Below are positions 1 through 21,665 of a stretch of 64,000 bases of DNA, in pieces. Under the pieces are notes generated by a model that saw only the letters and a program-made list of their open reading frames with translations, had not been told where the DNA came from and made no database searches. The stretch spans positions 247,911-311,910 of the forward strand of contig JAMCRP010000001.1 of the NCBI GenBank assembly GCA_023380635.1. Direction: 5' to 3'. Every line of letters starts with the position of its first letter. The first letter of the stretch is position 1. The DNA comes from Patescibacteria group bacterium. GTDB taxonomy: Bacteria; Patescibacteriota; Microgenomatia; JAMCZE01. The translations under genes were made by a program, and so were the position numbers.

Positions 1-888
1 CTTAACTTCATCGTATATCCGGCCCAAATATTCTCCGATAACTCCCAAAATAAGCAGCTGGATTCCACCGATAAATAGAGTGGAAACCAATGGTGACGCC
101 CACCCTAAAACGGCCGTTCCTGCTACTAGTTTAGCGTATAAAACATCGACAATTACCAGGAAAGCAAAGATGGAAACGGCAAACCCGATATAAGTCGCCA
201 GTCGAAGCGGCACATAGGAAAAAGAGAAAATTGCGTCAAAAGCCATTTTTGCCAGCTTTGCAAAATTCTGAGACTGCTTGCCAGCAAACCGCGGCGGTTT
301 TTCATATTCCTGGCCCAACTGTTTAAAGCCTACCCAGGTGCGCAAGGCCGGAATAAAGCGGTTCCGTTCCGGAAGACTTAGCAGGGCTTCCACAACTGGC
401 CGGCGCATCACCGCAAAAATTCCAACGTTGCGAGGAATGGTAATGGAGGACAATCGGCACATCAAAAAATAATAGAGACCAAACAAAAGTTTTCTTATCG
501 GGGGATCACGACGGACTTTCGAAACGCCGTAGACCACATCATAGTCCTCAGCAATCTTTTCCAGCATTTTTCCCAAAACTTCCGGCGGATCTTGTAGGTC
601 CGCATCAATTGTCGCAACCACTTCCCCCTTCGCTTGAGCCAGACCGGCCATAACCGCCGCCTGCTGGCCAAAGTTTCGTGACAAATTTATTACCTTAACT
701 TTCTTGTCCTTACCGTTCAACTCTCGAAGAATTTCGGGAGATTTATCCCGGCTGGCATCATTAACAAAAATCAGTTCGTACTCTTTTCCTTGTTTGTCCA
801 AAACTTCACGCAGTTGCTTATAGAGCTCTGTCAGATTTCCTTCTTCGTTGTAGACCGGGATGACAATAGAAGTCTGAACTTTGCTCAT
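1..888 (-). CDS. GT2-family polyprenol-phosphate glycosyltransferase (DPM1/ArnC-like); partial, C-terminus runs off the window start
   Basis: My own translation of the minus strand from the ATG at 888 gives MSKVQTSIVIPVYNEEGNL...ATIDADLQDPPE, which carries the N-terminal GT2 motifs, followed by C-terminal hydrophobic TM segments down to position 1. It is absent from the ORF track because it has no stop in the window. It shares a 4-nt ATGA overlap with the upstream ORF 885..1781. Confidence 0.8.
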   Translation of the reverse strand, partial: MSKVQTSIVIPVYNEEGNLTELYKQLREVLDKQGKEYELIFVNDASRDKSPEILRELNGKDKKVKVINLSRNFGQQAAVMAGLAQAKGEVVATIDADLQDPPEVLGKMLEKIAEDYDVVYGVSKVRRDPPIRKLLFGLYYFLMCRLSSITIPRNVGIFAVMRRPVVEALLSLPERNRFIPALRTWVGFKQLGQEYEKPPRFAGKQSQNFAKLAKMAFDAIFSFSYVPLRLATYIGFAVSIFAFLVIVDVLYAKLVAGTAVLGWASPLVSTLFIGGIQLLILGVIGEYLGRIYDEVK

Positions 889-1781
889 CGGAATCTCCTT
901 TTTAACTTATGACTAAATAACTTCAGCGGATTTTTCGTATCTTTCATTTGCTCAGTAAAAAGCCAATATTTGTAGTCTCTGCTGCTTTGCAAAAACTGTC
1001 TATTACAATCATTCAAGGAAACGTCTCGCTGCCAAAAACCCTTCCTTTCCCATATTTTAGCGAAAGTTACCTCCATATAGAAAGCCATGAGAAGCGCTAA
1101 AACCAATCCATGCAGACCGTCTCTGTAACCCTGGCCAAAAAAATAGCGGCTTAAAAATTCATCAGTGGGCATTTTAATGGCATCTCTCCAGGTGATTTCT
1201 TTGCTTTCGGAAATTAATTTTTCCGCCTCCCGAGTCGTGTAACTGTCAAATCGCAACAAAAAGTCAGAAACCGTTACCCAATTGAGATGGAGAATAGCAT
1301 TTTCCAGTTGGCCGATATTTCCGTCAACCTCCAGTTCTTCATGGACATGTTTGGCAGGAAACTTCGCCTTACCATTCTTAAAGAGCCGCAATTGCCAATC
1401 TGGGTACCACCGACTGTTCTCGATCCATTTGCCAAAAATAATATTTTTGCGGGGAACCCGGTAGGCTGTGGCTTGCGGGTCAGAAATTACTCTCCCTATT
1501 TCTTCCTGGAGCTCTGGCGTTATCCGTTCATCCGCATCGAGACTGAAAATCCAATCTCCAAGGCATTTTTCAAAGGCCAGGTTCATGTTCTTCTTCATGA
1601 GCGGCTGATTGGGAACAACGAAAACCTTTGCCTTCAGTTGTTTGGCAATTTTTACGGTATTGTCTGAAGAAGTACCGTCGACGACCACCACTTCATCGGC
1701 GAAGCGAGCGCTTTCCAAACATTCTTTGATATGTTTTTCTTCGTTAAAAGTGACAATAGCGATGGAAATTTTTGGTTTCAT
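885..1781 (-). CDS. GT2-family glycosyltransferase
   Basis: The N-terminus ISIAIVTFNEE...VVVDGTSSDNT...SLDADE is a typical GT2 (WcaA-like) catalytic domain. It overlaps both neighbours by 4 nt. Confidence 0.8.
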   Translation of the reverse strand: MKPKISIAIVTFNEEKHIKECLESARFADEVVVVDGTSSDNTVKIAKQLKAKVFVVPNQPLMKKNMNLAFEKCLGDWIFSLDADERITPELQEEIGRVISDPQATAYRVPRKNIIFGKWIENSRWYPDWQLRLFKNGKAKFPAKHVHEELEVDGNIGQLENAILHLNWVTVSDFLLRFDSYTTREAEKLISESKEITWRDAIKMPTDEFLSRYFFGQGYRDGLHGLVLALLMAFYMEVTFAKIWERKGFWQRDVSLNDCNRQFLQSSRDYKYWLFTEQMKDTKNPLKLFSHKLKRRFR

Positions 1782-3235
1782 TTGCGATAAGCTTTAAGAA
1801 AAATTCCAAAATTCTCCATAATCTCTTTCCTGTCAATCATAAAAGAGACTCCCGCAAAGATTATAGCCCCAGTTATCCCGGCTAACAAAATTCCAACAAT
1901 ACCGGAAGCTACTCTTAAAATTAAAAACATTCCCAGGCCCATGACCACTGACGAAAAGGTAGGCTTCCAGATTGGCTTAACAAAGCTAAATTCAATGTGC
2001 CTTTTTAAGAGATATCCGGTATACACCACGGTTAGAGCGACCACAAACGAAGCCATAGAGATTCCAGTGAACCCAAATTTTCCAACCAGGACAATGGTAA
2101 AGCCCCAGGTTAGAGCAATCCATAAAATCATTAGGCCAAGAGTAGTTTTGACCCGGCCGGTAGCATCCAAAGCATTGACCAAAACATTAGAAATTGCCGA
2201 CAACCCCGCTCCCAGGCAAAGAAAATAAAACGAGGGCAGAGCTGCTTCCCATTTAGCATACTTGGGAATGACATAAATTATCGGCTGGATTAGAAAAATC
2301 ATCCCGGTCAGAATGGGAAAGAGGACAAAACTCACGGCAAAAAGCGATTTTTCAATTCCCTTGCGCAAGGTCTCTTGTTCATGCTGAACACGAGCATAGG
2401 CCGGAAAAGTTACCCGAGTCACACTGTCCACAATTAACCGGAAAGGGCTGTAGGCCCAACGCTGGGCCCAACCCCAATATCCTACGCCTTCCGTCCCCAC
2501 CCAGCCGGTTAAAAAAACTGTCAGAAGATTATCTTTGATAACCGCCAAAACGCTTTTCCCCTGATAAGCAATGCCATACGACAGAAGCGCCCGGGCCTTA
2601 TGTCTGGCTATGCCAAATCTCACCTTCCACGGCGATAAAATATAGTACAACGGCAGCCCGACAAGAGCTGAAACCAAAATGGCCCAGGAATAGGAATCAA
2701 TTTCGAAGCCTCTGTAAGCCAAAACCACTACCAGGACATTAAAAACCGACGACTCGACGATTTGCGGAATGACCTGGACATCAAACGCCAGTTTCCGTTC
2801 CAGCAGCAAGGATGGCAGGGCTTTTAAGGAAGAAATAAATAGGGTTATTAAAAGAACATGATATAAAAATATGCCTTGAGAGTTTAGATGGGCATAGCCC
2901 GCGATATATCTGGTAACCAAGAATCCGACGACAACCGCCGCCGTGACCAAAATCTCCTGAATAGTAAATGTTGTCCGTAAGTCGTCTTCGTCAAGTTCTT
3001 CTTTTTTTTGAATTAAAGCCGCTCCCAACCCCACATCGGTAAAAATAGTAAAAATTTGCAGCAGAGCGTTGACGGCAATAAAAACACCAATTGCCGATGG
3101 GGACAAGAAAATCCCCAGAAAAAAGAAAGCCACCAAGGAAACAGCCTGCAATAAAACTGTCCGACCGATCAGGGCGACCACACTTCTAATGGTTTTTCCT
3201 TTGATATCTTCCAACTCCATAAATTCCGATTCCAA
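1778..3235 (-). CDS. polysaccharide biosynthesis protein / Wzx-like oligosaccharide flippase
   Basis: The 485-aa protein is polytopic with about 12-14 TM helices and has a MOP/Wzx-family profile. It lies in the same operon as the GT2 genes. Confidence 0.7.
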   Translation of the reverse strand: MESEFMELEDIKGKTIRSVVALIGRTVLLQAVSLVAFFFLGIFLSPSAIGVFIAVNALLQIFTIFTDVGLGAALIQKKEELDEDDLRTTFTIQEILVTAAVVVGFLVTRYIAGYAHLNSQGIFLYHVLLITLFISSLKALPSLLLERKLAFDVQVIPQIVESSVFNVLVVVLAYRGFEIDSYSWAILVSALVGLPLYYILSPWKVRFGIARHKARALLSYGIAYQGKSVLAVIKDNLLTVFLTGWVGTEGVGYWGWAQRWAYSPFRLIVDSVTRVTFPAYARVQHEQETLRKGIEKSLFAVSFVLFPILTGMIFLIQPIIYVIPKYAKWEAALPSFYFLCLGAGLSAISNVLVNALDATGRVKTTLGLMILWIALTWGFTIVLVGKFGFTGISMASFVVALTVVYTGYLLKRHIEFSFVKPIWKPTFSSVVMGLGMFLILRVASGIVGILLAGITGAIIFAGVSFMIDRKEIMENFGIFLKAYRK

Positions 3236-4826
3236 GGATAAACGCTAGAGAAATCGCGTTTCCCGCAACCCGCGGCCAGGTATTAGTAAATATACCATTA
3301 ATAGTGTGGTTTCCGGCAGATATGTCAACCGTAATCAATTTATACGGATTGTCATCAGTAATAGGAACTTCTCGGCCGTCAACGGATATTTTCCAGCCGG
3401 GGAAATTGGTTATTTGCGGCTGAAAAACCGCATTGTCACTGAAATTGCCGGTCACAGAAAAACTGTCAGGATTCCAATAATTCACATTCACATTACCGTT
3501 ATTAATTTCAAATTTCGAATTTCGAATTTCAAATTGATTAATATCCACCCACACTACCCCTTTATCATTGATGTAAGTCGCAACTCCTTTCGGCATAAAT
3601 TCAAAAGACGACCCGCTGATGTCCCATTTGACATATTTATCCGTCAGTAGTTGGTTATCAGAAACCGGAATATAGCGTTGCGGGACAAAATATTTCCCCT
3701 GAACAAAAATTACCGCGGCGATCAGGGGAACGGCCAGCCAGAGTTTTTTACCAATAAACCCGGCCAGAAGAGCCGCAAACAAAACTACAAATTCCAGAAA
3801 GCGCCAGGGAAACTGCAGGTACCAAAGCGGGGAAATCCGGTCCCAAAGAAAACGGGAATAGTCGGTAGTCATGAAAAGCGAAAACGCCAGTAAAACCCAT
3901 ACTAAAAGCGCTTTTCTATTTCTCCAAAGCAAGGCAGCCACCAAGGAAACTAAAATTACTAACCAGGATATTTTTCCCAGCGCGAAAGACATTCCGTCAA
4001 AACAACCGGCCACCGAGCCGCCAAAACCCCAGGGACTGTTCCAAAGCTGCGCCGGACAGACAAAATGAATCTGATAGGAGGCTAGATTTTTAATCAGCAA
4101 CTGGTCAACCAGAGTAAATTGCTTTTCCGCCAGTTCCGGCAACCAAAAAAAGGCGGTTAAACCAAAGGCAATAATCGGCGAAAGAAGAAGAGATTTCCGG
4201 CTGAAAACCAAAGCCCAGACGGCAAAGAAAACCATGTACGGCAGAAAAATGAGGTTGTGGGTAATCATTAACAATCCCAATAGGATCCCGGCCAAAACCG
4301 GGCGTTTTTTATAAACAGCTAAAAGAATTAGCGGCAGCCAAACAAAGGAGAAAAGTTCCGCTAAAGCGCCGCGGATATAGGCGTCAACAGCGTGATATGG
4401 GGCGTATAAATAAAATAACGCGGCAACTGTTCCTCCGGCTCTGCCAAAAAATTCCTTAGCCAAAAAGTACATTGCCAAAGCAGATCCCAAGAGAGCCGTG
4501 AACCAAACCAACTTGATCGAATCAATATATCCCAAACCTGTCAGGTGATAAATCTCTCCAAGGTAATAGGATAAGGGAGGATAAAAATTAAACAGCGGAT
4601 AACCGTAGCCAAAACCCAAGTCTTCTACCCACCTGACGGGAAATTGTCCCCCTTTTAGGGCCTTATCCAACTGCTCAAGCCGAACCACCTGTTGATCGTC
4701 ATGCATGGAAAAATAGCCGGGCGACAGGAGGGGTTTCCAGGTGAAATAGGAGAGGAAAAGAATTAGAATTACTGGAAGAAATGTGGCAACGCGTGAAAAA
4801 ATTTTGGACACGAGTTCATTATACAA
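3186..4826 (-). CDS. PTPS-related-domain (PF10131-like) polytopic membrane protein, putative GT-C glycosyltransferase
   Basis: The N-terminus FSMHDD...GQFPVRWVEDLGFGYGYPLFNFYPPLSYYLGE matches the signature of the 6-pyruvoyl-tetrahydropterin-synthase-related membrane protein family. A paralog lies at 14320..15795. There is a C-terminal soluble domain. Confidence 0.65.
   Translation of the reverse strand: MYNELVSKIFSRVATFLPVILILFLSYFTWKPLLSPGYFSMHDDQQVVRLEQLDKALKGGQFPVRWVEDLGFGYGYPLFNFYPPLSYYLGEIYHLTGLGYIDSIKLVWFTALLGSALAMYFLAKEFFGRAGGTVAALFYLYAPYHAVDAYIRGALAELFSFVWLPLILLAVYKKRPVLAGILLGLLMITHNLIFLPYMVFFAVWALVFSRKSLLLSPIIAFGLTAFFWLPELAEKQFTLVDQLLIKNLASYQIHFVCPAQLWNSPWGFGGSVAGCFDGMSFALGKISWLVILVSLVAALLWRNRKALLVWVLLAFSLFMTTDYSRFLWDRISPLWYLQFPWRFLEFVVLFAALLAGFIGKKLWLAVPLIAAVIFVQGKYFVPQRYIPVSDNQLLTDKYVKWDISGSSFEFMPKGVATYINDKGVVWVDINQFEIRNSKFEINNGNVNVNYWNPDSFSVTGNFSDNAVFQPQITNFPGWKISVDGREVPITDDNPYKLITVDISAGNHTINGIFTNTWPRVAGNAISLAFILGIGIYGVGRYQRKNH
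3504..3535. repeat. 7-nt tandem repeat (AATTTCR)x4.5 inside CDS 3186..4826
   Basis: The units are aatttca aatttcg aatttcg aatttca aatt. The copy number is not a multiple of 3, so slippage would shift the frame. Confidence 0.6.
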
Positions 4827-6187
4827 AATTACTTGTAGTTACCGCACTAACGACGATAGCTGTTCTTTTTTCTCCGAGACAAATATTGGCCACCGGAAAC
4901 CAGCCTCACTACACTCTAATTATTAATCAAGTCCGCGGTTCGGAGTGTTACGATGCGGGAAATATTGATTTTCTAAAACAGCAACTGCAAACCTTGGAAC
5001 AGAAGAACTTGCCAGCCACTTTTGCCGTGCGCTTTGACGCTTTGAATGACGGACAATATCTTTCGGTCCTTAACGATGCTAAAAATAAAGGTTTTGAAAT
5101 GGCGGGGTTCCTGGAAATTACCCCACTTTTAGCCTCCGAAAGCGGGGTAGTTTATCATGGTGATGTCCAAAAATGGTATCAACCGGGAAATCTATATTTA
5201 CTTGGCTACTCTCCCGATGACAGAAAGAAATTGATTGACACCTACATGGCCGGCTTCAAGAAAGCTTTTGGCGGTTTTCCAAAAACCACCGTTTCCTGGA
5301 TTATCGATGCCTATTCGCTGCAATATTTAAGCGACAAATATCACATTCAGGCGCACGAAATAACCCGGGACCAGTGGGGAACCGACCGGCTCACTCTTTA
5401 TGGCGGCCCTGAGCATTACCCTTATGTTCCCAGCCCCAATTGGCCAATAATTCCGGCCACCGGTAGCGCTGTCACTTCTCCGCTGATAATCCGTCAGACA
5501 ATCTCTGATCCGGTGGAAAATTATGGCGATCCGACCAATTCTCACACTTCCCAGCCGAACGACTTTATGCGCCGAACGACGAACTTTGCTTATTTCCAAT
5601 ATCTTTTTGACCAAGCCCATGCCCAAGATTTAAACGACTACACGATTGCCGTTATTGGATTGGAAAACTCTATGGAGGCAAAATATCAGCAGATGTTTTC
5701 CTGGCAGCTCGAATATGTCAGCCAGTGGCGGAAAAAAGATTCAAATAATCAAGTTGTCACCGCGCAAAATTTTCCTTTCAACAAGAAGCAGCCATTATTT
5801 ACTGTCTACGAGGGAAATATTTTTAAAGACCGCTCCTCACGAGCCTGGTGGATAAATACCAATGCCTACCGGATCCGCCTGCGCCTGGCTGGCGGCCGGT
5901 TATTTATCAGCGATTTACGAGTTTACGATTCGAACCTGATCGACCCTTACTCATCACGAACGGCAGTTGGAAGCGCCTCCTGGATTGTCCCCTTTATTGT
6001 GGACAGTTCACGCTGGCCTAACCATCTCCTTGATCCTATCCCTGATGATCAGAAATCGGCGGGTATTGAGTTAAGAAATAATATTACCGATGCCCAAAAA
6101 TACTCCCTGGAAAAAGAAGGGGAGTATAAACTTGTCTTGTATGACGATGCATGTTGCCGTTGCCGTCTTTTCTCCTCAGTGGTTTGA
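4781..6187 (+). CDS. exported hypothetical protein (N-terminal signal anchor), apparently interrupted by a frameshift
   Basis: The 468-aa ORF has an N-terminal TM (LLVVTALTTIAVLF) and I recognise no domain. It ends in non-protein-like sequence (DDACCRCRLFSSVV), while an open +1 frame (6075..6632) continues to a GTGA overlap with the next gene. Confidence 0.6.
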   Translation: MWQRVKKFWTRVHYTKLLVVTALTTIAVLFSPRQILATGNQPHYTLIINQVRGSECYDAGNIDFLKQQLQTLEQKNLPATFAVRFDALNDGQYLSVLNDAKNKGFEMAGFLEITPLLASESGVVYHGDVQKWYQPGNLYLLGYSPDDRKKLIDTYMAGFKKAFGGFPKTTVSWIIDAYSLQYLSDKYHIQAHEITRDQWGTDRLTLYGGPEHYPYVPSPNWPIIPATGSAVTSPLIIRQTISDPVENYGDPTNSHTSQPNDFMRRTTNFAYFQYLFDQAHAQDLNDYTIAVIGLENSMEAKYQQMFSWQLEYVSQWRKKDSNNQVVTAQNFPFNKKQPLFTVYEGNIFKDRSSRAWWINTNAYRIRLRLAGGRLFISDLRVYDSNLIDPYSSRTAVGSASWIVPFIVDSSRWPNHLLDPIPDDQKSAGIELRNNITDAQKYSLEKEGEYKLVLYDDACCRCRLFSSVV

Positions 6188-6632
6188 CTTGCCGGGCAAA
6201 CAGACCATTTCCAAAGAAACGGTTAACAAAGATCCCGCCGCCTATCCGCTCTATCTTTCAAACCTGCCAATAGATCAAAATAAATCCTTTGTCTATGTTA
6301 ACAACCGCTACGCTTTTGTCAGCCGCAATCCGGTCAGACTGATTTTTTATCCACGTGACGCTAATAACAACCCGGCAATAGCACAAATATCCGTTCAAAC
6401 TAGCCCGCAAATCGAAAACATTCAAACCCGTGATCAAGATGATCTTGGCGGGGGAATAATAATTGACCTGCAAAACTCACATCCGCAGAAAACAGAAATA
6501 ATAGTCCAAAGCGGCGGTGAAAATTTTACTCAGACTGTATATTTTGCCCCCAACTGCTCACGAAACCCGCTTTCCTGTCTTAGAAATCCTTGGTATTTCT
6601 GGTGGTATTTACATACAATTAAGCAAAAGTGA
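6075..6632 (+). CDS. probable C-terminal continuation of 4781..6187 after a +1 frame change (pseudogene, assembly error or recoding)
   Basis: Frame 0 is open from 6075. Its translation HVAVAVFSPQWFDLPGKQ...NPWYFWWYLHTIKQK is protein-like. Its stop overlaps the GTG start of the downstream GT39 gene (GTGA at 6629-6632), which implies translational coupling. Confidence 0.5.
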   Translation, partial: EIILPMPKNTPWKKKGSINLSCMTMHVAVAVFSPQWFDLPGKQTISKETVNKDPAAYPLYLSNLPIDQNKSFVYVNNRYAFVSRNPVRLIFYPRDANNNPAIAQISVQTSPQIENIQTRDQDDLGGGIIIDLQNSHPQKTEIIVQSGGENFTQTVYFAPNCSRNPLSCLRNPWYFWWYLHTIKQK

Positions 6633-15795: not shown

Positions 15796-16729
15796 TGACC
15801 GCGCTCCAGACGGCAAATTTATTATTTGGCAACAACGCGGAAAAACCCAACGGAACAATAAAATAATGAGGGAGCAGTTCGTGGGTCCCCGTTTGGGCCA
15901 ATGCCCCGATATAAGCCAAAACTATCAAAGCAATTTCCCTTCTTCTATTGATGAAAAAGGCGGGGACTTGGAAAGCTGTGGCGTATTTGATTCCCACAGA
16001 AATAACCCAGCCAAAAGTTCCCCACACTTTATGTTTATTAAGAAAAAGGTAATATCCGAAAATGGCAAAAAAGAGCATCACAATATCCATATGTCCGGCG
16101 ACGACACCTTCATAAATTATTAATGGGTTGAAAGCGAACAGAACCAGGCCTTTGTTTTTAGCTAATTTATAAATAAAGTACGCGCTGCCGACATAAGCAG
16201 CTACCGCCATCCCCTTAAACCAAAAAAGAGTTAAAAGGAATTTATTGAGCCCCAAAAAATAAAACAGAACGGAAATAGGTAAAAAAGTGGGGCCATATGG
16301 ATAGGTCCGGTGTGTCCAGTTCATAAACCGGGTCCAGGTGTCTGTCGGATACATGAGAGCGGTAGTGGTATACGGATTAGCATGGTGGAAAACAGCAATC
16401 CGGGCGTCGAAAATATAGTTAAAAATGTCGTGAGAAAAAGCAGGGTAGCTTATCAAGCCAAGTATGGCCACAGCGACTACCAGCAGAGCCATATTTTTTG
16501 GCAATAGCCTATTAGCGTCACGGATAAATAGAAAATAGAAAATAGAAAATAGAATTGTCAGAACAATAAATATTTCCGTTGACAATGGCCGGTTAAAATA
16601 ACCCAGTTGAATCATCTGATGTTGGAAATTCAAAAACCATGAGGTTTGAAATAGAGTTAAATTGAGATCAATTTGGGAGTAGGAATATATTCCCAGGGAC
16701 AAAAGGAGTAACAAATATAGGATGATCAT
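15707..16729 (-). CDS. polytopic membrane protein, putative GT-C-type glycosyltransferase (DUF2029/GT87-like), function unknown
   Basis: The 340-aa protein is an integral membrane protein with about 9-10 TM helices and lies inside the glycosylation island. The family assignment is tentative. Confidence 0.45.
   Translation of the reverse strand: MIILYLLLLLSLGIYSYSQIDLNLTLFQTSWFLNFQHQMIQLGYFNRPLSTEIFIVLTILFSIFYFLFIRDANRLLPKNMALLVVAVAILGLISYPAFSHDIFNYIFDARIAVFHHANPYTTTALMYPTDTWTRFMNWTHRTYPYGPTFLPISVLFYFLGLNKFLLTLFWFKGMAVAAYVGSAYFIYKLAKNKGLVLFAFNPLIIYEGVVAGHMDIVMLFFAIFGYYLFLNKHKVWGTFGWVISVGIKYATAFQVPAFFINRRREIALIVLAYIGALAQTGTHELLPHYFIVPLGFSALLPNNKFAVWSAVIISLVLLLLRYYPFLSTGVWLPIAPLRLG
16526..16553. 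repeat. perfect 7-nt tandem repeat (AAATAGA)x4 inside CDS 15707..16729
   Basis: The units are aaataga aaataga aaataga aaataga. The repeat encodes FSIFYFLF on the minus strand. Confidence 0.6.
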
Positions 16730-17496
16730 TTGTAGAAACCCCGCAGATCGTTAAGTTTTACCCGGAAGATTTCTTTAAGCATATCTAAGGATTCTTTGAC
16801 AAATTTGCCGCCCCCGCGGCTTTTTCCTGTAGACACATCGCGATCAGCCCAAGTCACGGGTACCTCAGCAATCTTGTAGCCCCGCCGCTGAGCGGCAACC
16901 AACAGTTCCACATCGAAAGAAGTAACTTTCCACCCCTCGACTTGGTTTTTTTCACTGCGGATAACCTGAAGCAACGGAAAAATCTCCTTGGCTACTTTAC
17001 CTTTAAAAGATTTGAAACCTGCCTGGGTATCAACAATCTCCCGAAGGAGAGCTGCCCGCCTAATCTCACGAAAAACTGTTGAGGCCAACTGCCGGAAAGC
17101 TGAAAAATTTTTTCGCTCGCTTCCCCGACTGCCAATAACAACATCAAAACCCTTTTTATAAAAAGGTAGAAGTTTAGCCACTTCAGAAATCGGAGTCGAT
17201 TGGTCCATATCAGTAAAAAGAACTATCTCACCTTCGGTTGCCCGAATCCCGGACCAAACGGCAAAAGGTTTCCCGGCATGATCATTTTGAAGATATTTGA
17301 ATCCGGAAGTTTTTTCGCAGAAATCTTCAGCTAAGCGGCGAGCCTGCTCGTCCGGAGAGCCATCGTCGGAAACGATAACTTCCCATGGATAATCCTGTTT
17401 CTGCAGATAGTCGTTCACCTCTGCCAGCGCTCCTCGCTTCAGATTTTCGGTTTCGTTATAGGAGGGAATAACAACGGAAAGATATGGTTTAGCCAT
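16726..17496 (-). CDS. GT2-family polyprenol-phosphate glycosyltransferase (DPM1/dolichyl-phosphate beta-glucosyltransferase-like)
   Basis: LSVVIPSYNETENL...VIVSDDGSPDE...FTDMDQSTP is the GT2 DPM1-like catalytic domain. Confidence 0.75.
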   Translation of the reverse strand: MAKPYLSVVIPSYNETENLKRGALAEVNDYLQKQDYPWEVIVSDDGSPDEQARRLAEDFCEKTSGFKYLQNDHAGKPFAVWSGIRATEGEIVLFTDMDQSTPISEVAKLLPFYKKGFDVVIGSRGSERKNFSAFRQLASTVFREIRRAALLREIVDTQAGFKSFKGKVAKEIFPLLQVIRSEKNQVEGWKVTSFDVELLVAAQRRGYKIAEVPVTWADRDVSTGKSRGGGKFVKESLDMLKEIFRVKLNDLRGFYK

Positions 17497-17499
17497 ACA

Positions 17500-18990
17500 C
17501 TATTTACCCGTATAGTGTATCAGTTTGTAAATACTTATTCCAGCCGGCCCCATTTTTGAATCGACAATTTCCGCCCGGCCAAAACCGGCGATTTCCCAAA
17601 GCGGATTTCCCAGCGGTTCGCACTTTTTTTCTTCACAGATAACGACCAGGGTGTTAGTTACCGTTTCCCTCCTGGGATCATTATCCGGATTCTCAATTGT
17701 CACCGGCGCCCGGTTCCAGAGTTCCAGGTAATAACGGTAAGCTTGATCGGTATTGAAATTGGATATCAAACCGAGATTATACGGTTGACCTCCGGCGTAA
17801 TCTAAAACTGTCCTGTCTATCTCCTGAATTTGCGACAACATGTTGTGGGGTGGTTGCCAGAGATAAAGATTTTTAATCATAAAGTAGCTTAAGATTGCCG
17901 CTCCGGTCAAAAACACCGGTATCCCTACTTTTCTTTTAAGAAGCGCGCTTCCGGTTACCCCCAGCAAAAGAAATGGCAAGGGATAAAGATAGCCAAAATA
18001 GTGGTCGTTTAGCTGGCCTTGATAAGAACCAACTCCCAGCGTCCCAACAAGCAGCCAGACCAGAATTAAGGCCGCTTTAATCTTAGAATTTTCGGTTTGG
18101 CGTATTTTTGCTACCCAATATCCCACACCAATTAGTGAGACAAAAAAGAAAACATATTCCCAGACTGTCTCCCGGAAACCAAAAAGCATGCCATAAAGCC
18201 GGCGCTGGATCTCCATAATTAGCCAAACAAGATTACTACTTCGGGGGGCCACAGTTTGCCCCCGGCGGGTGATAAACTCCCAGATGCTTTTAGTGTTGGG
18301 AAATCCGTGACGAATCTCAAAGATAATAAACAGCGAGTTGCCTAACAGAAAACCCGCTAAAACCGCGGCAATTTGTCTTAACCAATCTCTTACCGGAAAG
18401 ATTAAGAGCATTGCCAAGCCGATTACCGCCGCCAAAGCCAGATTCATATAATGCAGCTGAAACAAAATGCCGTAACTGACTCCTGCCAGGAAGGTGTAGA
18501 TAATCTTCTTTCTGGTGGCAGACAAATACAAAAGAGCAACGGTTATAAGCGTAAAAAATGGTACCGGATTGGGGTTCCAGGAGAACCGGGAAATATCGAT
18601 CATTTTGGGCGACAGAGCTACCAGAAACGAGGCGATAATTGCTGCCTTGGTATCAAAAAACCTGGCAGCAAACCAGTAGGTTAAGGCTACCATCGCCACT
18701 CCGATCAGAGCCGAAAGATAGGCCGGACCCACGGGATCAAGGCGGAAAAGCCACAGAAAGGGCAGCATGAAATAATAGTAAATCGGCCCGGTAAAAAAAC
18801 CGCCCACCGAAGCGCTCGGTCCCAAAAGTGTCCACTTATGATTGACGATCATCGCCTTAACAACGAGAACATCCCGCCCCTGGTCACCCAAAAACTGGAG
18901 GTATCCTGAAAGGTTGTAAAACCGCAGACCCGCAGCTATTAGCAAAATTACAACGAGCCAAAAACGGCTGTTTCGAAGGAATTTAAACAT
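17500..18990 (-). CDS. GT39/PMT_2-family membrane glycosyltransferase (paralog 4)
   Basis: RFYNLSGYLQFLGDQGRDVLVVKAMIVNHKWTLLGPSASVGGFFTGPIYYY is the ArnT/PMT_2-like N-terminus. The protein is polytopic. Confidence 0.7.
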   Translation of the reverse strand: MFKFLRNSRFWLVVILLIAAGLRFYNLSGYLQFLGDQGRDVLVVKAMIVNHKWTLLGPSASVGGFFTGPIYYYFMLPFLWLFRLDPVGPAYLSALIGVAMVALTYWFAARFFDTKAAIIASFLVALSPKMIDISRFSWNPNPVPFFTLITVALLYLSATRKKIIYTFLAGVSYGILFQLHYMNLALAAVIGLAMLLIFPVRDWLRQIAAVLAGFLLGNSLFIIFEIRHGFPNTKSIWEFITRRGQTVAPRSSNLVWLIMEIQRRLYGMLFGFRETVWEYVFFFVSLIGVGYWVAKIRQTENSKIKAALILVWLLVGTLGVGSYQGQLNDHYFGYLYPLPFLLLGVTGSALLKRKVGIPVFLTGAAILSYFMIKNLYLWQPPHNMLSQIQEIDRTVLDYAGGQPYNLGLISNFNTDQAYRYYLELWNRAPVTIENPDNDPRRETVTNTLVVICEEKKCEPLGNPLWEIAGFGRAEIVDSKMGPAGISIYKLIHYTGK

Positions 18991-19472
18991 TATTTCCAGA
19001 TGATTTGACTGTAGATGATGAAGTTAACGATCAAACCCACCCCAACGCCGGCAACATAAAAGACCAGATAGGCACTGAATTTCTTGGCAAATTTACCAGC
19101 CACGGGTAATCCGGAAACCAGTTTAACTATTCCCAATTTGGACCAAGGTGTCATTAACAATATTGGCTGCTTAAATTTTTTCAGACCAAATATCAGCTCG
19201 CCAGTTTTGAGAAAAACGAACTGAATAATGACCGACCCAAAAGAGAGAATATTAAACTGAACGAACTTCATCGGCACATCGCTCATCGCCAAAGACCGAT
19301 CAGAAAAGGTAAAGAAATTATTGAGAATGAAGTTAGAAATGATGGCCAGCTCCGCTCCCGCCGGTCCAGCAATTGATGGCGCCACATCAACCCGGACACC
19401 CAAAATCAAGACAGTGGTGTTAATAATAAATCCAATAGTGCCGACAATCAGGAATTTTAAGAAATGCGCCAT
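18990..19472 (-). CDS. gtrA: GtrA-family small membrane protein
   Basis: The 160-aa protein has 4 TM helices and a GtrA-like (PF04138) profile. It is adjacent to GT2 genes. Confidence 0.6.
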   Translation of the reverse strand: MAHFLKFLIVGTIGFIINTTVLILGVRVDVAPSIAGPAGAELAIISNFILNNFFTFSDRSLAMSDVPMKFVQFNILSFGSVIIQFVFLKTGELIFGLKKFKQPILLMTPWSKLGIVKLVSGLPVAGKFAKKFSAYLVFYVAGVGVGLIVNFIIYSQIIWK

Positions 19473-19473
19473 A

Positions 19474-20214
19474 CTATGATATTACCTTTTTTACCCGATA
19501 ACGTAAAGCATAATGCAAGAGATTTTTGGTATAGGACAAGGTCTTCATTTTTGATTGTCCTCCGAGACGGTCGAAGTAAACAATCGGCTGCTCGGCGACT
19601 TTAAAATTCGAACTTAAGGCTTCAAAAGCAAAGGCCGGAACAAGGAGCCAGCCGGTATGCATGGCTACTTTCGGCTTTAGAGCCAACCACACTTCTTTGG
19701 TAAACGCCCGGTACAAATTGGTAAATTCTTTCGATTTGCTGGTCCAGGCCAACAGCTGCAATATATTGTTGGCACTGAGGCTAAAAACCTTGCGCCACCA
19801 AGACCAGTTCATAATTTTTCCGCCCCGGCAATACCGGCTGCCAAGGACGATATCTGCCTTTTCCAATCTACGGATAAAGTCCGGAATCTGATCCGGATCG
19901 TTTGACAGATCTGCTTCCATAGTGATTAAAATATCCGCGCCCAATTTTTCCACGGCATAGTCTAGGCCCTTGGAAATACCCAGTCCCAGCTTTCCCGGTC
20001 CGGGAATTTTGCTGTCATAGTAGTGGACATTTTTATACTTTTCGGCCAGTTCTGAAGTTATGGCCGCGGTGTTGTCCGGAGAATGGCTGTCAGAAATAAG
20101 CACTTCCAAATGATATCCGGGAATTTTTTCCTGCTGTGCTAAGACCCGAGCCACAAAACTGCCAATGTTTGCCTCTTCGTTGAAAGTGGGAGCAACAACA
20201 ACAACTTTTTTCAT
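19474..20214 (-). CDS. GT2-family dolichol-phosphate mannosyltransferase-like glycosyltransferase
   Basis: VVVAPTFNEEANI...VLISDSHSPDNT...TMEADLSNDP is DPM1-like. Confidence 0.75.
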   Translation of the reverse strand: MKKVVVVAPTFNEEANIGSFVARVLAQQEKIPGYHLEVLISDSHSPDNTAAITSELAEKYKNVHYYDSKIPGPGKLGLGISKGLDYAVEKLGADILITMEADLSNDPDQIPDFIRRLEKADIVLGSRYCRGGKIMNWSWWRKVFSLSANNILQLLAWTSKSKEFTNLYRAFTKEVWLALKPKVAMHTGWLLVPAFAFEALSSNFKVAEQPIVYFDRLGGQSKMKTLSYTKNLLHYALRYRVKKVIS

Positions 20215-20957
20215 TCAGTCAGTCCTAATCTGTCGGCCCAAATAACAGCGATTACTTTCATTTGCTCGGTTACGGTATTCGTTGTCATTTTGCTGTCACC
20301 GCTGGTCCTTAGATCAAAATTAATGGGAATTTCTTTTATTTTTGCTCCTCGCTTTTTCATTTCGTAAAGCAATCTTTCTTTATAGGAAAATGAGTTTGAA
20401 AATACCTTTCCAAAATTAATGGAATCCAGGTAGCCTTTGACCCTGGCCAACCGGAAACCCGTGGTGAAATCATGAAGATCAAACATCAAGAGACTTATTC
20501 GATAAGTCAGGTTCCCAACCACGGAAAAAAATTTTCGGTCTATTCCCCATTCCTTTGGGATTGATCCGCCTGGAACATATCTTGAACCGATGACATAATC
20601 GTAACCTTTATCAAACTCCGCGACAAACCGCGGCACATAAATAGGATCATGTTGAAAGTCCGCATCCATTTCCATCACTGCGTCAGCCTTTAATTTATCA
20701 ATCGCGTATCTGAATCCCCGGGTATAGGCTGCTCCCAATCCAGCTTTCTCGCCTTCCAGAAGGAACAAGTTCTTATATTTCTTTTGTTTCTCGGCAACGA
20801 TTTTCCCCGTTCCGTCAGGAGATTTATCATCAATAACTAATAGAAGCATTTTGTGGTCTTTTATTTTTGGAAAAACTTTGCCGCACAATTCGTCGATCAT
20901 CCGGCCGATACTCTGGGCCTCATTATAAGTGGGCATGGCAATCACTATCGTGCTCAT
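20211..20957 (-). CDS. GT2-family dolichol-phosphate mannosyltransferase-like glycosyltransferase
   Basis: I chose the start MSTIVIAMPTYNE at 20957. The ORF-track start at 21053 would overlap trmD. Motifs: VIDDKSPDGT...MEMDADFQHDP. Confidence 0.75.
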   Translation of the reverse strand: MSTIVIAMPTYNEAQSIGRMIDELCGKVFPKIKDHKMLLLVIDDKSPDGTGKIVAEKQKKYKNLFLLEGEKAGLGAAYTRGFRYAIDKLKADAVMEMDADFQHDPIYVPRFVAEFDKGYDYVIGSRYVPGGSIPKEWGIDRKFFSVVGNLTYRISLLMFDLHDFTTGFRLARVKGYLDSINFGKVFSNSFSYKERLLYEMKKRGAKIKEIPINFDLRTSGDSKMTTNTVTEQMKVIAVIWADRLGLTE

Positions 20958-20996
20958 TGAATTGAGTATAGCAAGACAAAAGGCTAAAATACAGCT

Positions 20997-21665
20997 ATGA
21001 AGATCGATGTTCTCACTCTCTTTCCGCAAATGTTTTCCGGTCCGTTTGATCAAAGTATTGTGAAGCGGGCAAAGGATAAGGGACTGGTAAATATTGAGCT
21101 ACATGATCTACGCCGCTGGGCCATTGACGAGCGTGGCTCCGTTGACGACCGGCCATATGGCGGCGGTGTTGGCATGGTTCTCAGAATTGAGCCTATTTAT
21201 AACGCCATAGAAGACATTAAAAAGAGAAAAGGAAAAATTAGGATTGTGTTATTAGACGCCCGTGGCAATACTTTCTCTCAACCCAAAGCCAGGAGTTATT
21301 CAAAACTCGATCAACTTATCCTCATATGTGGTCATTACGAAGGAATAGACGAGAGAGTTAAGAAACTAGCCGACGAAAGTATTAGTATCGGTAATTATGT
21401 TTTAACCGGCGGCGAAATTCCGGCCATGGTCATTACTGATGCTGTGACCCGGCTGATCCCCGGGGTTTTAGAAAAACCAGAAGCTGTTCAAATAGAATCA
21501 TTTTCTAACCAGCAACCAGAATCTAGCGACCAGTATCTAGAATATCCGCAGTATACGCGCCCCGAAGAATTTAATGGTTGGAAAGTTCCGGAAGTCCTTC
21601 TTTCCGGCAACCACGCCGAAATTAAAAAATGGCGGGAGAAAATCAGGCCCGCAGGAGAAAAATAA
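20997..21665 (+). CDS. trmD: tRNA (guanine37-N1)-methyltransferase
   Basis: MKIDVLTLFPQMF...YGGGVGMV...ICGHYEGIDERV is canonical TrmD. Confidence 0.92.
   Translation: MKIDVLTLFPQMFSGPFDQSIVKRAKDKGLVNIELHDLRRWAIDERGSVDDRPYGGGVGMVLRIEPIYNAIEDIKKRKGKIRIVLLDARGNTFSQPKARSYSKLDQLILICGHYEGIDERVKKLADESISIGNYVLTGGEIPAMVITDAVTRLIPGVLEKPEAVQIESFSNQQPESSDQYLEYPQYTRPEEFNGWKVPEVLLSGNHAEIKKWREKIRPAGEK

What the first reader, a model, noticed from the sequence alone, without database searches (positions are those of the whole stretch)
1..20957. 21-kb surface-glycosylation island dominated by GT-C membrane glycosyltransferase paralogs
Three adjacent transcription units encode five GT2 DPM1/ArnC-like polyprenol-P-sugar synthases, four GT39/PMT_2 paralogs, two PTPS-related (PF10131-like) paralogs, YfhO and a DUF2029-like membrane protein. 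GtrA, a Wzx-like flippase and a Zn-ribbon methyltransferase are also present. That makes eight predicted GT-C-fold enzymes in about 20 kb. In Firmicutes, YfhO/GtrA/GT2 modules glycosylate teichoic acids, and PMT/GT39 enzymes O-mannosylate proteins. A cluster this redundant points to extensive, possibly combinatorial, glycosylation of surface proteins or envelope polymers in an organism that otherwise looks genome-reduced. Neither the acceptor nor the sugars can be read from the sequence.
Basis: partly seen in the sequence, partly recalled or inferred. Interest (0 to 1): 0.6.

Follow-up and report, generated by a model that had tools for sequence, protein, structure and literature searches.

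The report
Dense membrane glycosyltransferase cluster in a CPR bacterium
A tiny-genome Patescibacteria (Microgenomatia-type) bacterium has a gene cluster of at least 30 kb, packed with membrane enzymes that use lipid-linked sugars to glycosylate its surface; the enzyme families are known and the cluster is shared with its relatives, so it is real but not a new kind of system.

Summary
Window 1-21053 encodes five GT2 enzymes, GtrA, a Wzx flippase, a methyltransferase and eight GT-C-type membrane proteins, in three strand blocks. Paralogs share 24-31% amino-acid identity and no nucleotide similarity, so they are not assembly duplicates.

Corrections:
- Only four of the five GT2s look like polyprenol-phosphate-sugar synthases.
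- The YfhO gene is split by an internal deletion.
- The "DUF2029-like" protein has only weak MptA/B-like matches.
- Two unassigned ORFs are one frameshifted gene for a membrane-anchored, deacetylase/hydrolase-fold protein.

The cluster runs at least 9 kb past the window start, adding three GT-C genes. It is also not genome-specific: 20 loci of at least 18 kb from Curtiss-, Gottesman-, Levy- and Woesebacteria MAGs carry a median of nine GT-C genes each, often in the same order.

[quoted passage not shown] Sugars and acceptors remain unknown. NCBI already annotates most of the genes. Moderate interest; new member of a known kind.

The parts
1..888 (-). GT2 polyprenol-phosphate-sugar synthase type (ArnC/GtrB/PgfS-like). 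The 3' end is cut by the window edge; the full gene is 311 aa on the Logan contig.
   Evidence: PF00535 at 126.9 bits. NCBIfam PgfS 221 bits and ArnC 179 bits over the full length. Two C-terminal hydrophobic helices. Full-length copy in L002 at 10894-11829.
885..1781 (-). GT2 with a non-DPM1-like C-terminal domain and one hydrophobic segment. It is the GT2 partner conserved next to GT-C genes in relatives.
   Evidence: PF00535 at 74.3 bits. Best NCBIfam hits are TIGR04283 and the SunS N-domain. Orthologs at 33-43% identity in most related loci. NCBI MCL4397666.1.
1778..3235 (-). Wzx/MOP-family flippase.
   Evidence: Polysacc_synt_3 at 154.6 bits and Polysacc_synt at 82.3 bits. NCBIfam O-glycosylation flippase, MOP flippase and TuaB at about 100 bits, all below their cut-offs. 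The crude hydropathy scan flags 14 overlapping hydrophobic segments.
3186..4826 (-). GT-C glycosyltransferase of the PTPS_related/YfhO-like subfamily. Probable start at 4706 (506 aa). NCBI calls it 'hypothetical protein'.
4781..6632 (+). One gene broken by a +1 frameshift at about 6149 (ORFs 4781-6187 and 6090/6132-6632). It encodes a membrane-anchored protein with a glycoside-hydrolase/deacetylase-fold (beta/alpha) barrel followed by Ig-like beta-sandwich domains.
6629..7936 (+). GT-C, PMT_2 family (ArnT-like subgroup with a 'DFDQD' loop-1 motif).
   Evidence: PF13231 at 40.8 bits. 25% identity to the 17500-18990 protein. NCBI names it 'glycosyltransferase family 39 protein'.
7884..8825 (+). 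SAM-dependent methyltransferase with an N-terminal CxxC...CxxC zinc-ribbon-like segment.
   Evidence: Methyltransf_23 at 91.2 bits. The cysteine pairs are visible in the translation. A methyltransferase sits at a different position in the close relative's cluster.
8734..10365 (+). GT-C, PMT_2 family ('FDQGLD' loop-1 motif). Probable start at 8812 (517 aa).
   Evidence: PF13231 at 30.7 bits. Orthologs at 23-29% identity in several related loci, including most Gottesmanbacteria-type ones. NCBI MCL4397673.1 is 517 aa.
10362..12570 (+). YfhO-family GT-C split into two ORFs (10362-11567 and 11536/11605-12570) by an out-of-frame internal deletion. Probable pseudogene or split gene.
   Evidence: PF09586 at 37.3 bits (N part) and 65.2 bits (C part). 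Colinear with the intact 734-aa paralog: residues 6-398 match frame 3 and residues 415-733 match frame 1. About 35 residues, including a TM helix, are missing at the junction.
12557..14320 (+). GT-C, PMT_2 family of the PMT-like subgroup ('NDEVD' loop-1 motif). Probable start at 12602.
   Evidence: PF13231 at 29.2 bits. 29% identity, E = 4e-33, to the PF02366-positive PMT outside the window. Orthologs in Curtissbacteria-type loci.
14320..15795 (+). GT-C, PTPS_related family, with a YfhO/PgfM-like C-terminal beta domain.
   Evidence: PF10131 at 38.6 bits and the YfhO C-terminal region at 24.7 bits. NCBIfam PgfM1/PgfM2 C-terminal weak hits.
15707..16729 (-). Polytopic membrane protein (eight hydrophobic segments flagged by the crude scan), a probable small GT-C of the MptA/MptB/PimE-like class. 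Its 3' end overlaps the convergent gene by 89 nt.
   Evidence: NCBIfam TIGR03459 E = 1.8e-7 and MptB E = 5.4e-6, both below cut-off. Precomputed PF26314. No Pfam hit in my scans. D101 in 'SHDIFNY' is invariant across 11 homologs.
16726..17496 (-). Soluble DPM1-like GT2 (polyprenol-phosphate hexose synthase type).
   Evidence: PF00535 at 76.6 bits. Best NCBIfam hits are PgfS, ArnC, Dol-P-hexose transferase and AglJ. No TM segment.
17500..18990 (-). GT-C, PMT_2 family ('GDQGRD' loop-1 motif).
   Evidence: PF13231 at 30.2 bits. The conserved module GT2-GtrA-this gene-GT2-MptB-like occurs in L042, and L043 holds its 3' part (this gene, GT2, MptB-like).
18990..19472 (-). GtrA-family small membrane protein, the putative polyprenol-phosphate-sugar flippase.
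   Evidence: PF04138 at 50.7 bits. Three hydrophobic segments flagged by the crude scan. NCBI names it 'GtrA family protein'.
19474..20214 (-). Soluble DPM1-like GT2.
   Evidence: PF00535 at 78.1 bits. Best NCBIfam hits are ArnC, PgfS, AglJ and PpgS.
20211..21053 (-). Soluble DPM1-like GT2. The probable true start is the ATG at 20957 ('MSTIVIAMPTYNE'), 40 bp from the divergent trmD.
   Evidence: PF00535 at 87.3 bits. Best NCBIfam hits are PgfS, AglJ, ArnC and Dol-P-hexose transferase. 30% identity to the 19474-20214 protein.

Best explanation
The region is the right-hand two-thirds of a cluster of at least 30 kb that combines several 'multi-component transmembrane glycosylation systems'.

**Proposed mechanism.**
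1. Cytoplasmic-face GT2 enzymes load single sugars from nucleotide sugars onto a polyprenol phosphate. One is membrane-anchored and ArnC/GtrB/PgfS-like; three are soluble and DPM1-like.
2. GtrA, and possibly the Wzx protein, move the lipid-linked sugars to the outer face of the membrane.
3. There, a battery of GT-C enzymes transfers the sugars to envelope acceptors. The window holds seven intact GT-C genes and one broken one, from four or five old subfamilies. At least three more lie just outside the window.

The left-hand genes look like a module that makes and tailors a lipid-linked glycan. They are Wzx, non-DPM1-type GT2s, a GT4 and an unassigned 558-aa polytopic protein outside the window, the methyltransferase, and the now-frameshifted deacetylase-fold ectoenzyme.

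**My commitment.** The main acceptor is a secondary envelope glycopolymer or lipoglycan that is extended or decorated outside the membrane. Protein O-glycosylation by the PMT-type and YfhO/Pgf-type members runs in parallel.

**Shown versus inferred.**
- Shown: family and fold assignments, gene linkage, the age of the paralogs, and conservation across Microgenomates-group MAGs.
- Inferred: the lipid carrier, the direction of flow, the sugars and the acceptors.
For: - **All three defining components are adjacent.** These are GT2 synthase-type enzymes, GtrA and GT-C proteins.
- **The operon at 15707-21053 reads GT2-GT2-GtrA-GT-C-GT2-GT-C.** The same order recurs in L042 at 39-48% identity, and L043 holds its 3' part at 59-66%.
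- **Acidic loop-1 motifs are visible in every paralog**. This matches the DxD-type motif described for these enzymes in PMC8035078.
- **The paralogs are ancient.** They share 24-31% identity with each other, against up to 77% to orthologs elsewhere.
- **Relatives carry the same kind of cluster.** The median is nine GT-C genes per locus of about 20 kb, in 20 loci.
- **Several genes hint at a polymer.** These are Wzx, GT4 and a rhamnosyl/GlfT1-like GT2, the deacetylase/hydrolase-fold ectoprotein and weak MptB-like matches.
Against: - No biochemical or expression data exist.
- No priming phosphoglycosyltransferase, Wzy-family hit or nucleotide-sugar synthesis gene was found in the window or in the 9 kb beyond it.
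- Two genes of the plus-strand block are disrupted, so part of the system may be decaying.
- The GT-C assignment of the 340-aa protein is weak.
- Relatives' loci centred on the PMT ortholog do not contain GtrA, Wzx or the deacetylase-fold gene within 10 kb. The coupling of these parts is therefore not universal.
Confidence: 0.72

Rival explanations
1. The cluster is mainly a protein O-glycosylation machinery, of the actinobacterial Ppm1/Pmt type and the streptococcal Pgf/GtrB-PgtC2 type. The many GT-C paralogs would glycosylate Ser/Thr-rich regions of different secreted and surface proteins.
For: - The membrane-anchored GT2 scores 221 bits against PgfS.
- The YfhO and PTPS-like C-terminal domains weakly match PgfM1/PgfM2.
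- Two genes just outside the window reach PF02366 (PMT), and 12557-14320 is their paralog with an 'NDEVD' motif.
- Surface proteins lie next door: a CAP-domain protein with an S/T/E-rich linker, an 808-aa fn3/LTD protein and a TasA-like protein.
- GT-C-dependent glycosylation of Ser/Thr-rich disordered regions is documented in streptococci (10.1101/2024.05.05.592596; PMC5856776).
Against: - None of the four window PMT_2 proteins reaches the PMT model, and no PMT_4TMC or MIR domain was found.
- The Wzx, GT4, deacetylase-fold, methyltransferase and MptB-like genes are not needed for single-sugar protein O-glycosylation.
- A screen for Ser/Thr-rich segments in window proteins found nothing striking.
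Confidence: 0.3
2. The GT-C enzymes form a sequential extracytoplasmic assembly line. They would build a long lipoglycan or wall glycan entirely from polyprenol-phosphate sugars, as mycobacteria do for lipomannan, LAM and arabinogalactan (MptA/B, Emb, Aft). They would not be decorating a pre-made acceptor.
For: - Eleven or more GT-C genes from at least four subfamilies lie in about 30 kb.
- One has an MptA/B-like signal.
- Several distinct Pol-P-sugar synthases could supply different donors.
- The conserved gene order across relatives suggests a fixed pathway.
Against: - The MptB-like match is far below cut-off.
- No lipid-anchor or primer synthesis genes were seen.
- Nothing in the sequence shows processivity.
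Confidence: 0.25
3. The cluster is a decaying or non-functional remnant, or partly an assembly or consensus artefact of a metagenome-assembled genome.
For: - Two genes are disrupted: a +1 frameshift at about 6149 and an out-of-frame deletion at about 11540-11570.
- The NCBI MAG and the Logan assembly of SRR10278331 carry identical protein sequences. Whether they derive from the same reads was not checked, so they cannot be counted as independent confirmation.
Against: - Fifteen of the 17 genes are intact, with conserved invariant residues.
- Orthologs are maintained across many MAGs from different studies.
- There are no nucleotide-level duplicates or long repeats.
- An intact YfhO paralog sits nearby.
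Confidence: 0.05
4. The GT-C enzymes mainly modify membrane lipids or lipid-anchored molecules, in the manner of ArnT, to alter surface charge or resist antimicrobial peptides from host bacteria.
For: - The PMT_2 family includes ArnT.
- An out-of-window paralog scores 70 bits to ArnT.
- ArnC-like GT2 hits occur.
Against: - The Arn-type acceptor, lipid A, would require an outer membrane. No lipid A synthesis genes were seen in the window, and from background knowledge Patescibacteria are thought to lack one.
- There are far more GT-C genes than a lipid modification needs.
Confidence: 0.08

Closest known systems
Multi-component (three-component) transmembrane glycosylation systems: GtrA/GtrB/GtrV of enterobacterial O-antigen, and CsbB/GtcA/YfhO and GtlA/GtcA/GtlB of Bacillus, Listeria and Staphylococcus teichoic acids (PMC8035078, PMC5836110)
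   Same: The three parts are the same and are adjacent: a GT2 polyprenol-phosphate-sugar synthase (one with C-terminal TM helices), a GtrA-family flippase, and polytopic GT-C transferases of the YfhO and PMT_2 families with acidic loop-1 motifs. A Wzx alternative flippase is also present, as described for some systems.
   Different: Known systems pair one synthase with one GT-C, or a few. Here four synthase-type GT2s and eight GT-C genes (at least 11 counting the part outside the window) are clustered. The host is a CPR bacterium in which teichoic acids and O-antigen are not documented. The window's YfhO copy is broken.
Streptococcus mutans Pgf protein O-glycosylation machinery (PgfS, PgfM1, PgfE, PgfM2; PMC5856776) and GtrB/PgtC2 glucosylation of Ser/Thr-rich regions (10.1101/2024.05.05.592596)
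   Same: The membrane-anchored GT2 is PgfS-like over its whole length (221 bits). The YfhO/PTPS-like proteins share the PgfM C-terminal domain.
   Different: All scores are far below the equivalog cut-offs (500-1500 bits). No PgfE-type epimerase is present. No acceptor adhesins have been identified.
Actinobacterial Ppm1/Pmt protein O-mannosylation and the mycobacterial/corynebacterial GT-C set for LM/LAM/arabinogalactan (MptA, MptB, PimE, EmbA-C, AftA-D)
   Same: Many GT-C enzymes use polyprenol-phosphate sugars outside the membrane. DPM1-like soluble GT2 synthases are present. PMT-family members and a weakly MptA/B-like small GT-C are present. The structural neighbours include AftD, AftA, AftB and PimE.
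   Different: No sequence-level membership was shown: the window proteins have no hits to the PDB sequences of these enzymes. From background knowledge, the genes in Actinobacteria are spread over a genome of several Mb; here they form one block, in a lineage known for genomes of about 1 Mb.
ArnC/ArnD/ArnT lipid A aminoarabinose pathway
   Different: There is no lipid A acceptor and no ArnA/ArnB/ArnEF. The deacetylase-fold protein is membrane-anchored, carries Ig-like domains and is frameshifted here.

Membership tests
Multi-component transmembrane glycosylation system (GtrABV / CsbB-GtcA-YfhO type) | GT-A (GT2) polyprenol-phosphate-sugar synthase, typically with C-terminal TM helices | tested here: met
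   The 1-888 gene (full length 311 aa) scores 221 bits to PgfS and 179 bits to ArnC end to end and has two C-terminal hydrophobic helices. Three further soluble DPM1-like GT2s are present.
Multi-component transmembrane glycosylation system (GtrABV / CsbB-GtcA-YfhO type) | GtrA-family (or Wzx-type) flippase encoded with the system | tested here: met
   PF04138 at 50.7 bits for 18990-19472. Polysacc_synt_3 at 154.6 bits for 1778-3235.
Multi-component transmembrane glycosylation system (GtrABV / CsbB-GtcA-YfhO type) | Polytopic GT-C transferase with a DxD-like acidic motif in an extracytoplasmic loop | tested here: met
   [not shown]
Multi-component transmembrane glycosylation system (GtrABV / CsbB-GtcA-YfhO type) | Formation of a C55-P-sugar intermediate and its transfer to an extracellular acceptor | not testable with these tools
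   Needs membrane assays with labelled nucleotide sugars, or genetics.
GT-C fold superfamily (for the unannotated 3186-4826 protein) | Conserved N-terminal TM module of GT-C enzymes recognisable by structure comparison | tested here: met
   [not shown]
PMT / GT39 protein O-mannosyltransferases | Match to the PMT model PF02366 at gathering score | tested here: not met
   The four window proteins match only PF13231 PMT_2. Two out-of-window paralogs do reach PF02366, at 59.8 and 51.9 bits.
PMT / GT39 protein O-mannosyltransferases | Asp-Glu (DE) motif in loop 1 | tested here: inconclusive
   12557-14320 has 'NDEVD'. The other three have 'DQxxD'-type motifs (translations). No alignment to characterised PMTs was made.
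PMT / GT39 protein O-mannosyltransferases | C-terminal PMT_4TMC module (and a MIR domain in eukaryotic members) | tested here: not met
   No such Pfam hits at E <= 0.01.
YfhO family (PF09586) | Pfam match above gathering score | tested here: met
   37.3 bits for the N part and 65.2 bits for the C part, against a 28.5-bit cut-off.
YfhO family (PF09586) | Single intact polypeptide of about 700-850 aa | tested here: not met
   It is two ORFs in different frames. About 35 residues, including a TM helix, are missing relative to the intact 734-aa paralog.
PTPS_related membrane proteins (PF10131) | Pfam match above gathering score | tested here: met
   14320-15795 scores 38.6 bits against a 26.4-bit cut-off. 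3186-4826 has no hit of its own, but it is a paralog (E = 1e-55) and many of its close homologs carry precomputed PF10131.
GT87 / DUF2029 (PF09594) and MptA/MptB mannosyltransferases (for 15707-16729) | Profile match at the curated threshold | tested here: not met
   No PF09594 or other Pfam hit for it or for 10 homologs. TIGR03459 scores 30.5 bits against a 439-bit cut-off, and MptB scores 25.1 against 40. A precomputed PF26314 hit is listed by the contig index. No PDB sequence hit.
GT87 / DUF2029 (PF09594) and MptA/MptB mannosyltransferases (for 15707-16729) | Conserved Asp in the first extracytoplasmic loop | tested here: inconclusive
   D101 in 'S(H/Y)DIFNY' is invariant in 11 homologs. 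Its equivalence to the catalytic Asp of PimE/MptB was not shown.
CE4/NodB-type polysaccharide deacetylase / glycoside-hydrolase-deacetylase fold (for 4781-6632) | (beta/alpha) barrel of the deacetylase/hydrolase superfamily | tested here: met
   [not shown]
CE4/NodB-type polysaccharide deacetylase / glycoside-hydrolase-deacetylase fold (for 4781-6632) | Sequence-profile membership and the Asp-His-His metal site | tested here: not met
   No Pfam or NCBIfam hit. The invariant columns of 50 homologs contain no invariant His. The metal site was not mapped on the model.

The most novel reading that the evidence does not exclude
Bacteria of the Microgenomates group (class Microgenomatia) devote a conserved block of a dozen or more GT-C genes to building a major envelope glycan or lipoglycan outside the membrane, entirely from polyprenol-phosphate sugars. 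This would be an assembly line convergent with mycobacterial LAM/arabinogalactan synthesis, and a defining and so far undescribed feature of the cell envelope of this CPR lineage.
Probability: 0.2. Interest if true: 0.7.

Novelty: new member of a known kind. Interest (0 to 1): 0.4.

Why it matters
The cell envelope of CPR/Patescibacteria is almost uncharacterised, yet it is where these epibiotic, genome-reduced cells meet their hosts. The evidence here is limited to loci fetched around one PMT ortholog, so genome-wide counts are not known. Even so, it shows that Microgenomates-group MAGs keep a dense and conserved battery of lipid-linked-sugar transferases.

That points to heavy extracytoplasmic glycosylation as a maintained investment, and it gives concrete targets:
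- four candidate donor synthases;
- one GtrA;
- defined GT-C subfamilies with invariant residues.

These can be taken into heterologous assays, glycoproteomics of enrichments, or structure-based acceptor prediction. The result does not reveal a new enzymatic principle.

Tried and rejected
- **Assembly duplication: rejected.** Protein paralogs share 24-31% identity, blastn finds only ORF-overlap self-hits, and there are no long repeats.
- **Horizontally acquired, genome-specific island: rejected.**
  - GC content (0.38-0.46) is close to the rest of the window.
  - No tRNA or mobile-element boundary was found: the only tRNA is at 63360, and the right flank begins with trmD, followed by housekeeping genes from 28304.
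  - Comparable clusters occur in 39 related loci.
- **PDB sequence searches: no hits.** This applies to the PTPS-like family profile, the 587-aa PMT_2 protein, and the 340-aa protein alone or as a profile. Only structure comparison worked.
- **The 558-aa polytopic protein outside the window: left unassigned.** It has no Pfam or NCBIfam hit, and hhalign against the PTPS-like profile gives a probability of 5%.
- **Extending the cluster further left: failed.**
  - The full-length 522-aa PMT (P0241) is not on record in the contig index.
  - An exact 48-mer search of metagenome contigs found nothing.
  - The closest relative's contigs end at the same gene.
- **Literature searches: nothing specific.** Searches for CPR/Patescibacteria/Microgenomates/OP11 combined with GT-C, mannosyltransferase, GT39/GT83 or protein glycosylation found no specific description. 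The only relevant text is a remark that one Microgenomates genome has 29 glycosyltransferase genes (PMC7143001).
- **Screen for Ser/Thr-rich acceptor regions in window proteins: uninformative**.

Full report
**1. What is in the sequence**

Six-frame ORF listing shows three strand blocks.
- Minus strand, 1-4826.
- Plus strand, 4781-15795.
- Minus strand, 15707-21053.

trmD follows, diverging at 20997. Pfam scans gave these assignments.
- **GT2 (PF00535):** five genes, at 1-888, 885-1781, 16726-17496, 19474-20214 and 20211-21053.
- **Wzx-type flippase:** Polysacc_synt_3 at 154.6 bits, 1778-3235.
- **GtrA:** PF04138 at 50.7 bits, 18990-19472.
- **Methyltransferase:** Methyltransf_23 with two N-terminal CxxC pairs, 7884-8825.
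- **PMT_2 (PF13231):** four proteins, all above the 26.1-bit gathering score, at 6629-7936, 8734-10365, 12557-14320 and 17500-18990.
- **PTPS_related (PF10131):** 38.6 bits, 14320-15795.
- **YfhO (PF09586):** hits on two consecutive ORFs, 10362-11567 and 11536-12570.

Four ORFs had no Pfam hit: 3186-4826, 4781-6187, 6090-6632 and 15707-16729.

The rest of the window is not glycosylation-related. Just right of trmD lie genes for surface or secreted proteins (a CAP-domain protein, an fn3/LTD protein, a SipW-like signal peptidase and a camelysin/TasA-like protein). Beyond them the genes are housekeeping: D-Ala-D-Ala carboxypeptidase, an aminoacyl-tRNA synthetase, RecJ, CCA-adding enzyme, SecDF, SecA, FtsEX, a release factor and others. 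No nucleotide-sugar synthesis genes were seen.

**2. Is it an artefact?**

No.
- All-against-all BLAST shows the paralogs are old, at 24-31% amino-acid identity.
- At the nucleotide level only the trivial overlaps of neighbouring ORFs match.
- A repeat search over 1-22000 finds only chance-sized matches of 18-33 nt.

**3. Corrections to the gene list**

*(a) The GT2s.*
- The cut gene at 1-888 is a full-length match to PgfS (221 bits) and ArnC (179 bits) and has two C-terminal hydrophobic helices. This is the classical membrane-anchored polyprenol-phosphate-sugar synthase layout.
- The three short GT2s in the right-hand operon have best hits to PgfS, ArnC, archaeal Dol-P-hexose transferase, AglJ and PpgS, and they have no TM segment. 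They are DPM1-like.
- The fifth, 885-1781, instead resembles TIGR04283 and the SunS N-terminal domain. It should not be counted as a lipid-sugar synthase.
- That fifth GT2 is, however, the one found beside GT-C genes in most related loci.

*(b) The protein at 3186-4826.*
- It is a 31%-identical paralog (E = 1e-55) of the PTPS_related protein.
- It has 1627 homologs, many carrying precomputed PF10131.
- An AlphaFold2 model built on 50 homologs is very confident: pLDDT 94.1, pTM 0.93. It shows a helical TM bundle, a C-terminal beta-sandwich at 417-513 and a final TM helix.
- D43, in 'MHDDQQ' just after TM1, is invariant. This is where GT-C enzymes carry their catalytic acid.

*(c) YfhO.*
- The two ORFs align colinearly with an intact 734-aa paralog just outside the window, but in different frames.
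- About 35 residues, including one TM helix, are missing at the junction near 11540-11570.
- This copy is a pseudogene or a split gene.

*(d) ORFs 4781-6187 and 6090-6632.*
- They are one gene. Intact homologs of 608-612 aa (66-68% identity) align to frame 2 up to 6148 and to frame 3 from 6150.
- The lesion is a single extra G that is not in a homopolymer.
- The family has 328 detected members, no Pfam domain and a typical length of 650-700 aa. Every member that carries a source name is from Patescibacteria or is labelled only "bacterium"; most carry no name.
- A model of the intact homolog (pLDDT 84.8) has an N-terminal membrane anchor, a (beta/alpha) barrel and Ig-like beta-sandwiches.
- It is therefore a carbohydrate-active ectoenzyme, either a deacetylase or a hydrolase, and it is disrupted in this genome.

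*(e) The protein at 15707-16729.*
- It gives no PF09594/DUF2029 hit, alone or through 10 homologs.
- It has only sub-threshold NCBIfam matches: TIGR03459, alpha-1,6-mannopyranosyltransferase A (E = 1.8e-7), and MptB (E = 5.4e-6).
- The contig index lists a precomputed PF26314 (MptA_B_family) hit.
- An Asp in 'SHDIFNY' is invariant across 11 homologs.
- I treat it as a probable small GT-C, with lower certainty.

*Count.* The window holds eight GT-C-type genes. Six are supported by Pfam, one by structure and one only weakly. Seven are intact.

**4. Source and extent**

The proteins are identical to NCBI entries MCL4397666-MCL4397681 of a 'Patescibacteria group bacterium' MAG, on a 559-kb contig with locus tags M1403_014xx. 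They are also identical to a 67-kb Logan contig from SRR10278331.

NCBI already names most of them 'glycosyltransferase family 39 protein', 'YfhO family protein', 'GtrA family protein' or '6-pyruvoyl-tetrahydropterin synthase-related protein'. Three are 'hypothetical': the genes at 3186-4826, 4781-6187 and 15707-16729.

The Logan contig shows that the cluster continues at least 9.1 kb beyond window position 1. In order, that stretch holds:
- the rest of the ArnC-like GT2;
- a rhamnosyl/GlfT1-like GT2;
- an unassigned 558-aa polytopic protein;
- another GT2;
- a GT4;
- an intact YfhO (123 bits);
- two proteins that reach the PMT model PF02366.

The cluster is thus at least 30 kb long with at least 11 GT-C genes. 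Its left end is still unknown, because my attempts to extend it failed.

**5. Comparative genomics**

A scan of species-representative genomes with the out-of-window PMT found 39 loci. Those with informative titles are from Curtissbacteria, Gottesmanbacteria, Levyibacteriota, Woesebacteria and 'Patescibacteria group' MAGs, plus one Saccharimonadales and one distant Blastocatellia locus. About half are third-party MAGs titled 'uncultured Gammaproteobacteria' or 'Pseudomonadales', which looks like a mislabel.

tblastn of all cluster proteins against these loci shows they are filled with the same GT-C subfamilies.
- Twenty loci of at least 18 kb carry a median of nine GT-C genes, with a range of 3-13.
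- In the Gottesmanbacteria-type loci, GT-C hits cover up to 66% of the DNA.
- Order is conserved within groups. One example is PMT-PMT-YfhO-PTPS-like on one strand, then PMT_2, three PMTs, PMT_2, PTPS-like, GT2, MptB-like and PTPS-like on the other.
- The left part of this cluster (558-aa protein, GT2, GT4, YfhO, PMT, PMT) recurs in L025, L029, L038, L044 and L045.
- The right-hand operon (GT2-GtrA-PMT_2-GT2-MptB-like) recurs in L042 at 39-48% identity, and L043 holds its 3' part at 59-66%.

One caveat applies. The loci were chosen because they contain one PMT ortholog, so that one gene per locus is guaranteed by the selection. The other GT-C genes are not.

The cluster is an old, lineage-wide trait rather than an island peculiar to this genome. 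Its density is typical for the group.

**6. Mechanism**

The gene content matches the 'multi-component transmembrane glycosylation systems' reviewed in PMC8035078. In those systems a GT-A enzyme makes a C55-P-sugar, a GtrA-type or Wzx-type flippase moves it across the membrane, and a GT-C enzyme with a DxD-like loop motif transfers the sugar to a wall polymer. The same logic glycosylates streptococcal surface proteins (PMC5856776; 10.1101/2024.05.05.592596).

Here four candidate donor synthases, two candidate flippases and many GT-C transferases are linked.

*What favours a glycopolymer.* The accompanying genes suggest that a lipid-linked glycan or wall polymer is made and then extended or decorated outside the membrane. 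These genes are:
- Wzx;
- GT4 and non-DPM1-type GT2s;
- the methyltransferase;
- the deacetylase-fold ectoenzyme;
- the MptB-like protein.

*What keeps protein O-glycosylation open.* The PMT-type and YfhO/Pgf-type members, together with the neighbouring surface proteins, keep this route open as a parallel function.

*What argues for caution.* No priming phosphoglycosyltransferase, Wzy match or nucleotide-sugar gene is visible in about 73 kb of sequence. Two genes are disrupted. Sugars, carrier lipid and acceptors are all inferred.

**7. Novelty and score**

Every component belongs to a described family, and the public annotation already names most of them. What this analysis adds:
- a structural GT-C assignment for a 'hypothetical' protein;
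- recognition of a conserved Patescibacteria ectoenzyme family with a deacetylase/hydrolase fold;
- the two gene disruptions;
- the true extent of the cluster;
- evidence that dense GT-C clusters are a shared feature of Microgenomates-group genomes.

I found no paper describing that shared feature. The only related text is a remark on 29 glycosyltransferase genes in one Microgenomates genome (PMC7143001).

This is a solid, moderately interesting lead into CPR envelope biology. It is not a new kind of system.

Noticed in passing
[not shown]
   Followed up: yes
window 11500-11605 (+): The YfhO gene has lost about 35 codons, including one TM helix, and changes frame. An intact YfhO paralog lies about 4.5 kb beyond the window start (L002 16242-18446).
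   Followed up: yes
window 15707-15795: The convergent genes 14320-15795 (+) and 15707-16729 (-) overlap by 89 nt at their 3' ends. Both gene calls are the same in the Logan annotation. No terminator search was done.
   Followed up: no
window 21906-27101 (-): Directly right of trmD lies a run of surface or secreted protein genes. These are a CAP-domain protein with an S/T/E-rich linker and a C-terminal TM segment, an unassigned 246-aa ORF, an 808-aa fn3/lamin-tail-domain protein, a SipW-like signal peptidase and a camelysin/TasA-like protein. This may be a surface-fibre module and a source of glycosylation acceptors.
   Followed up: partly
L003-L039 (record titles): Many third-party MAG records that hold close relatives of these genes are titled 'uncultured Gammaproteobacteria' or 'Pseudomonadales'. 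Their gene content and nearest named relatives are Curtiss-/Gottesmanbacteria, so the titles look like taxonomic mislabels.
   Followed up: no
L002 12724-14400 (outside the window, about 0.9-2.6 kb left of position 1): A 558-aa polytopic membrane protein (10 hydrophobic segments) sits between GT2 genes and has no Pfam or NCBIfam hit. It is conserved in L044 and L045 (544 aa). It could be a Wzy-like polymerase or another GT-C. hhalign to the PTPS-like profile gave a probability of only 5%.
   Followed up: partly
window 20957-21053: The longest ORF of the last GT2 starts at a TTG at 21053 and overlaps trmD. The ATG at 20957 ('MSTIVIAMPTYNE') fits the GT2 N-terminus and leaves a 40-bp divergent gap. 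The 'TM segment' predicted in the long form is probably not translated.
   Followed up: partly
window 6001-8000: This 2-kb bin has the lowest GC in the window (0.379, against 0.42-0.485 elsewhere). It coincides with the Phe/Ile/Leu-rich PMT_2 gene at 6629-7936. I read it as an amino-acid composition effect, not as foreign DNA, but did not test this.
   Followed up: no
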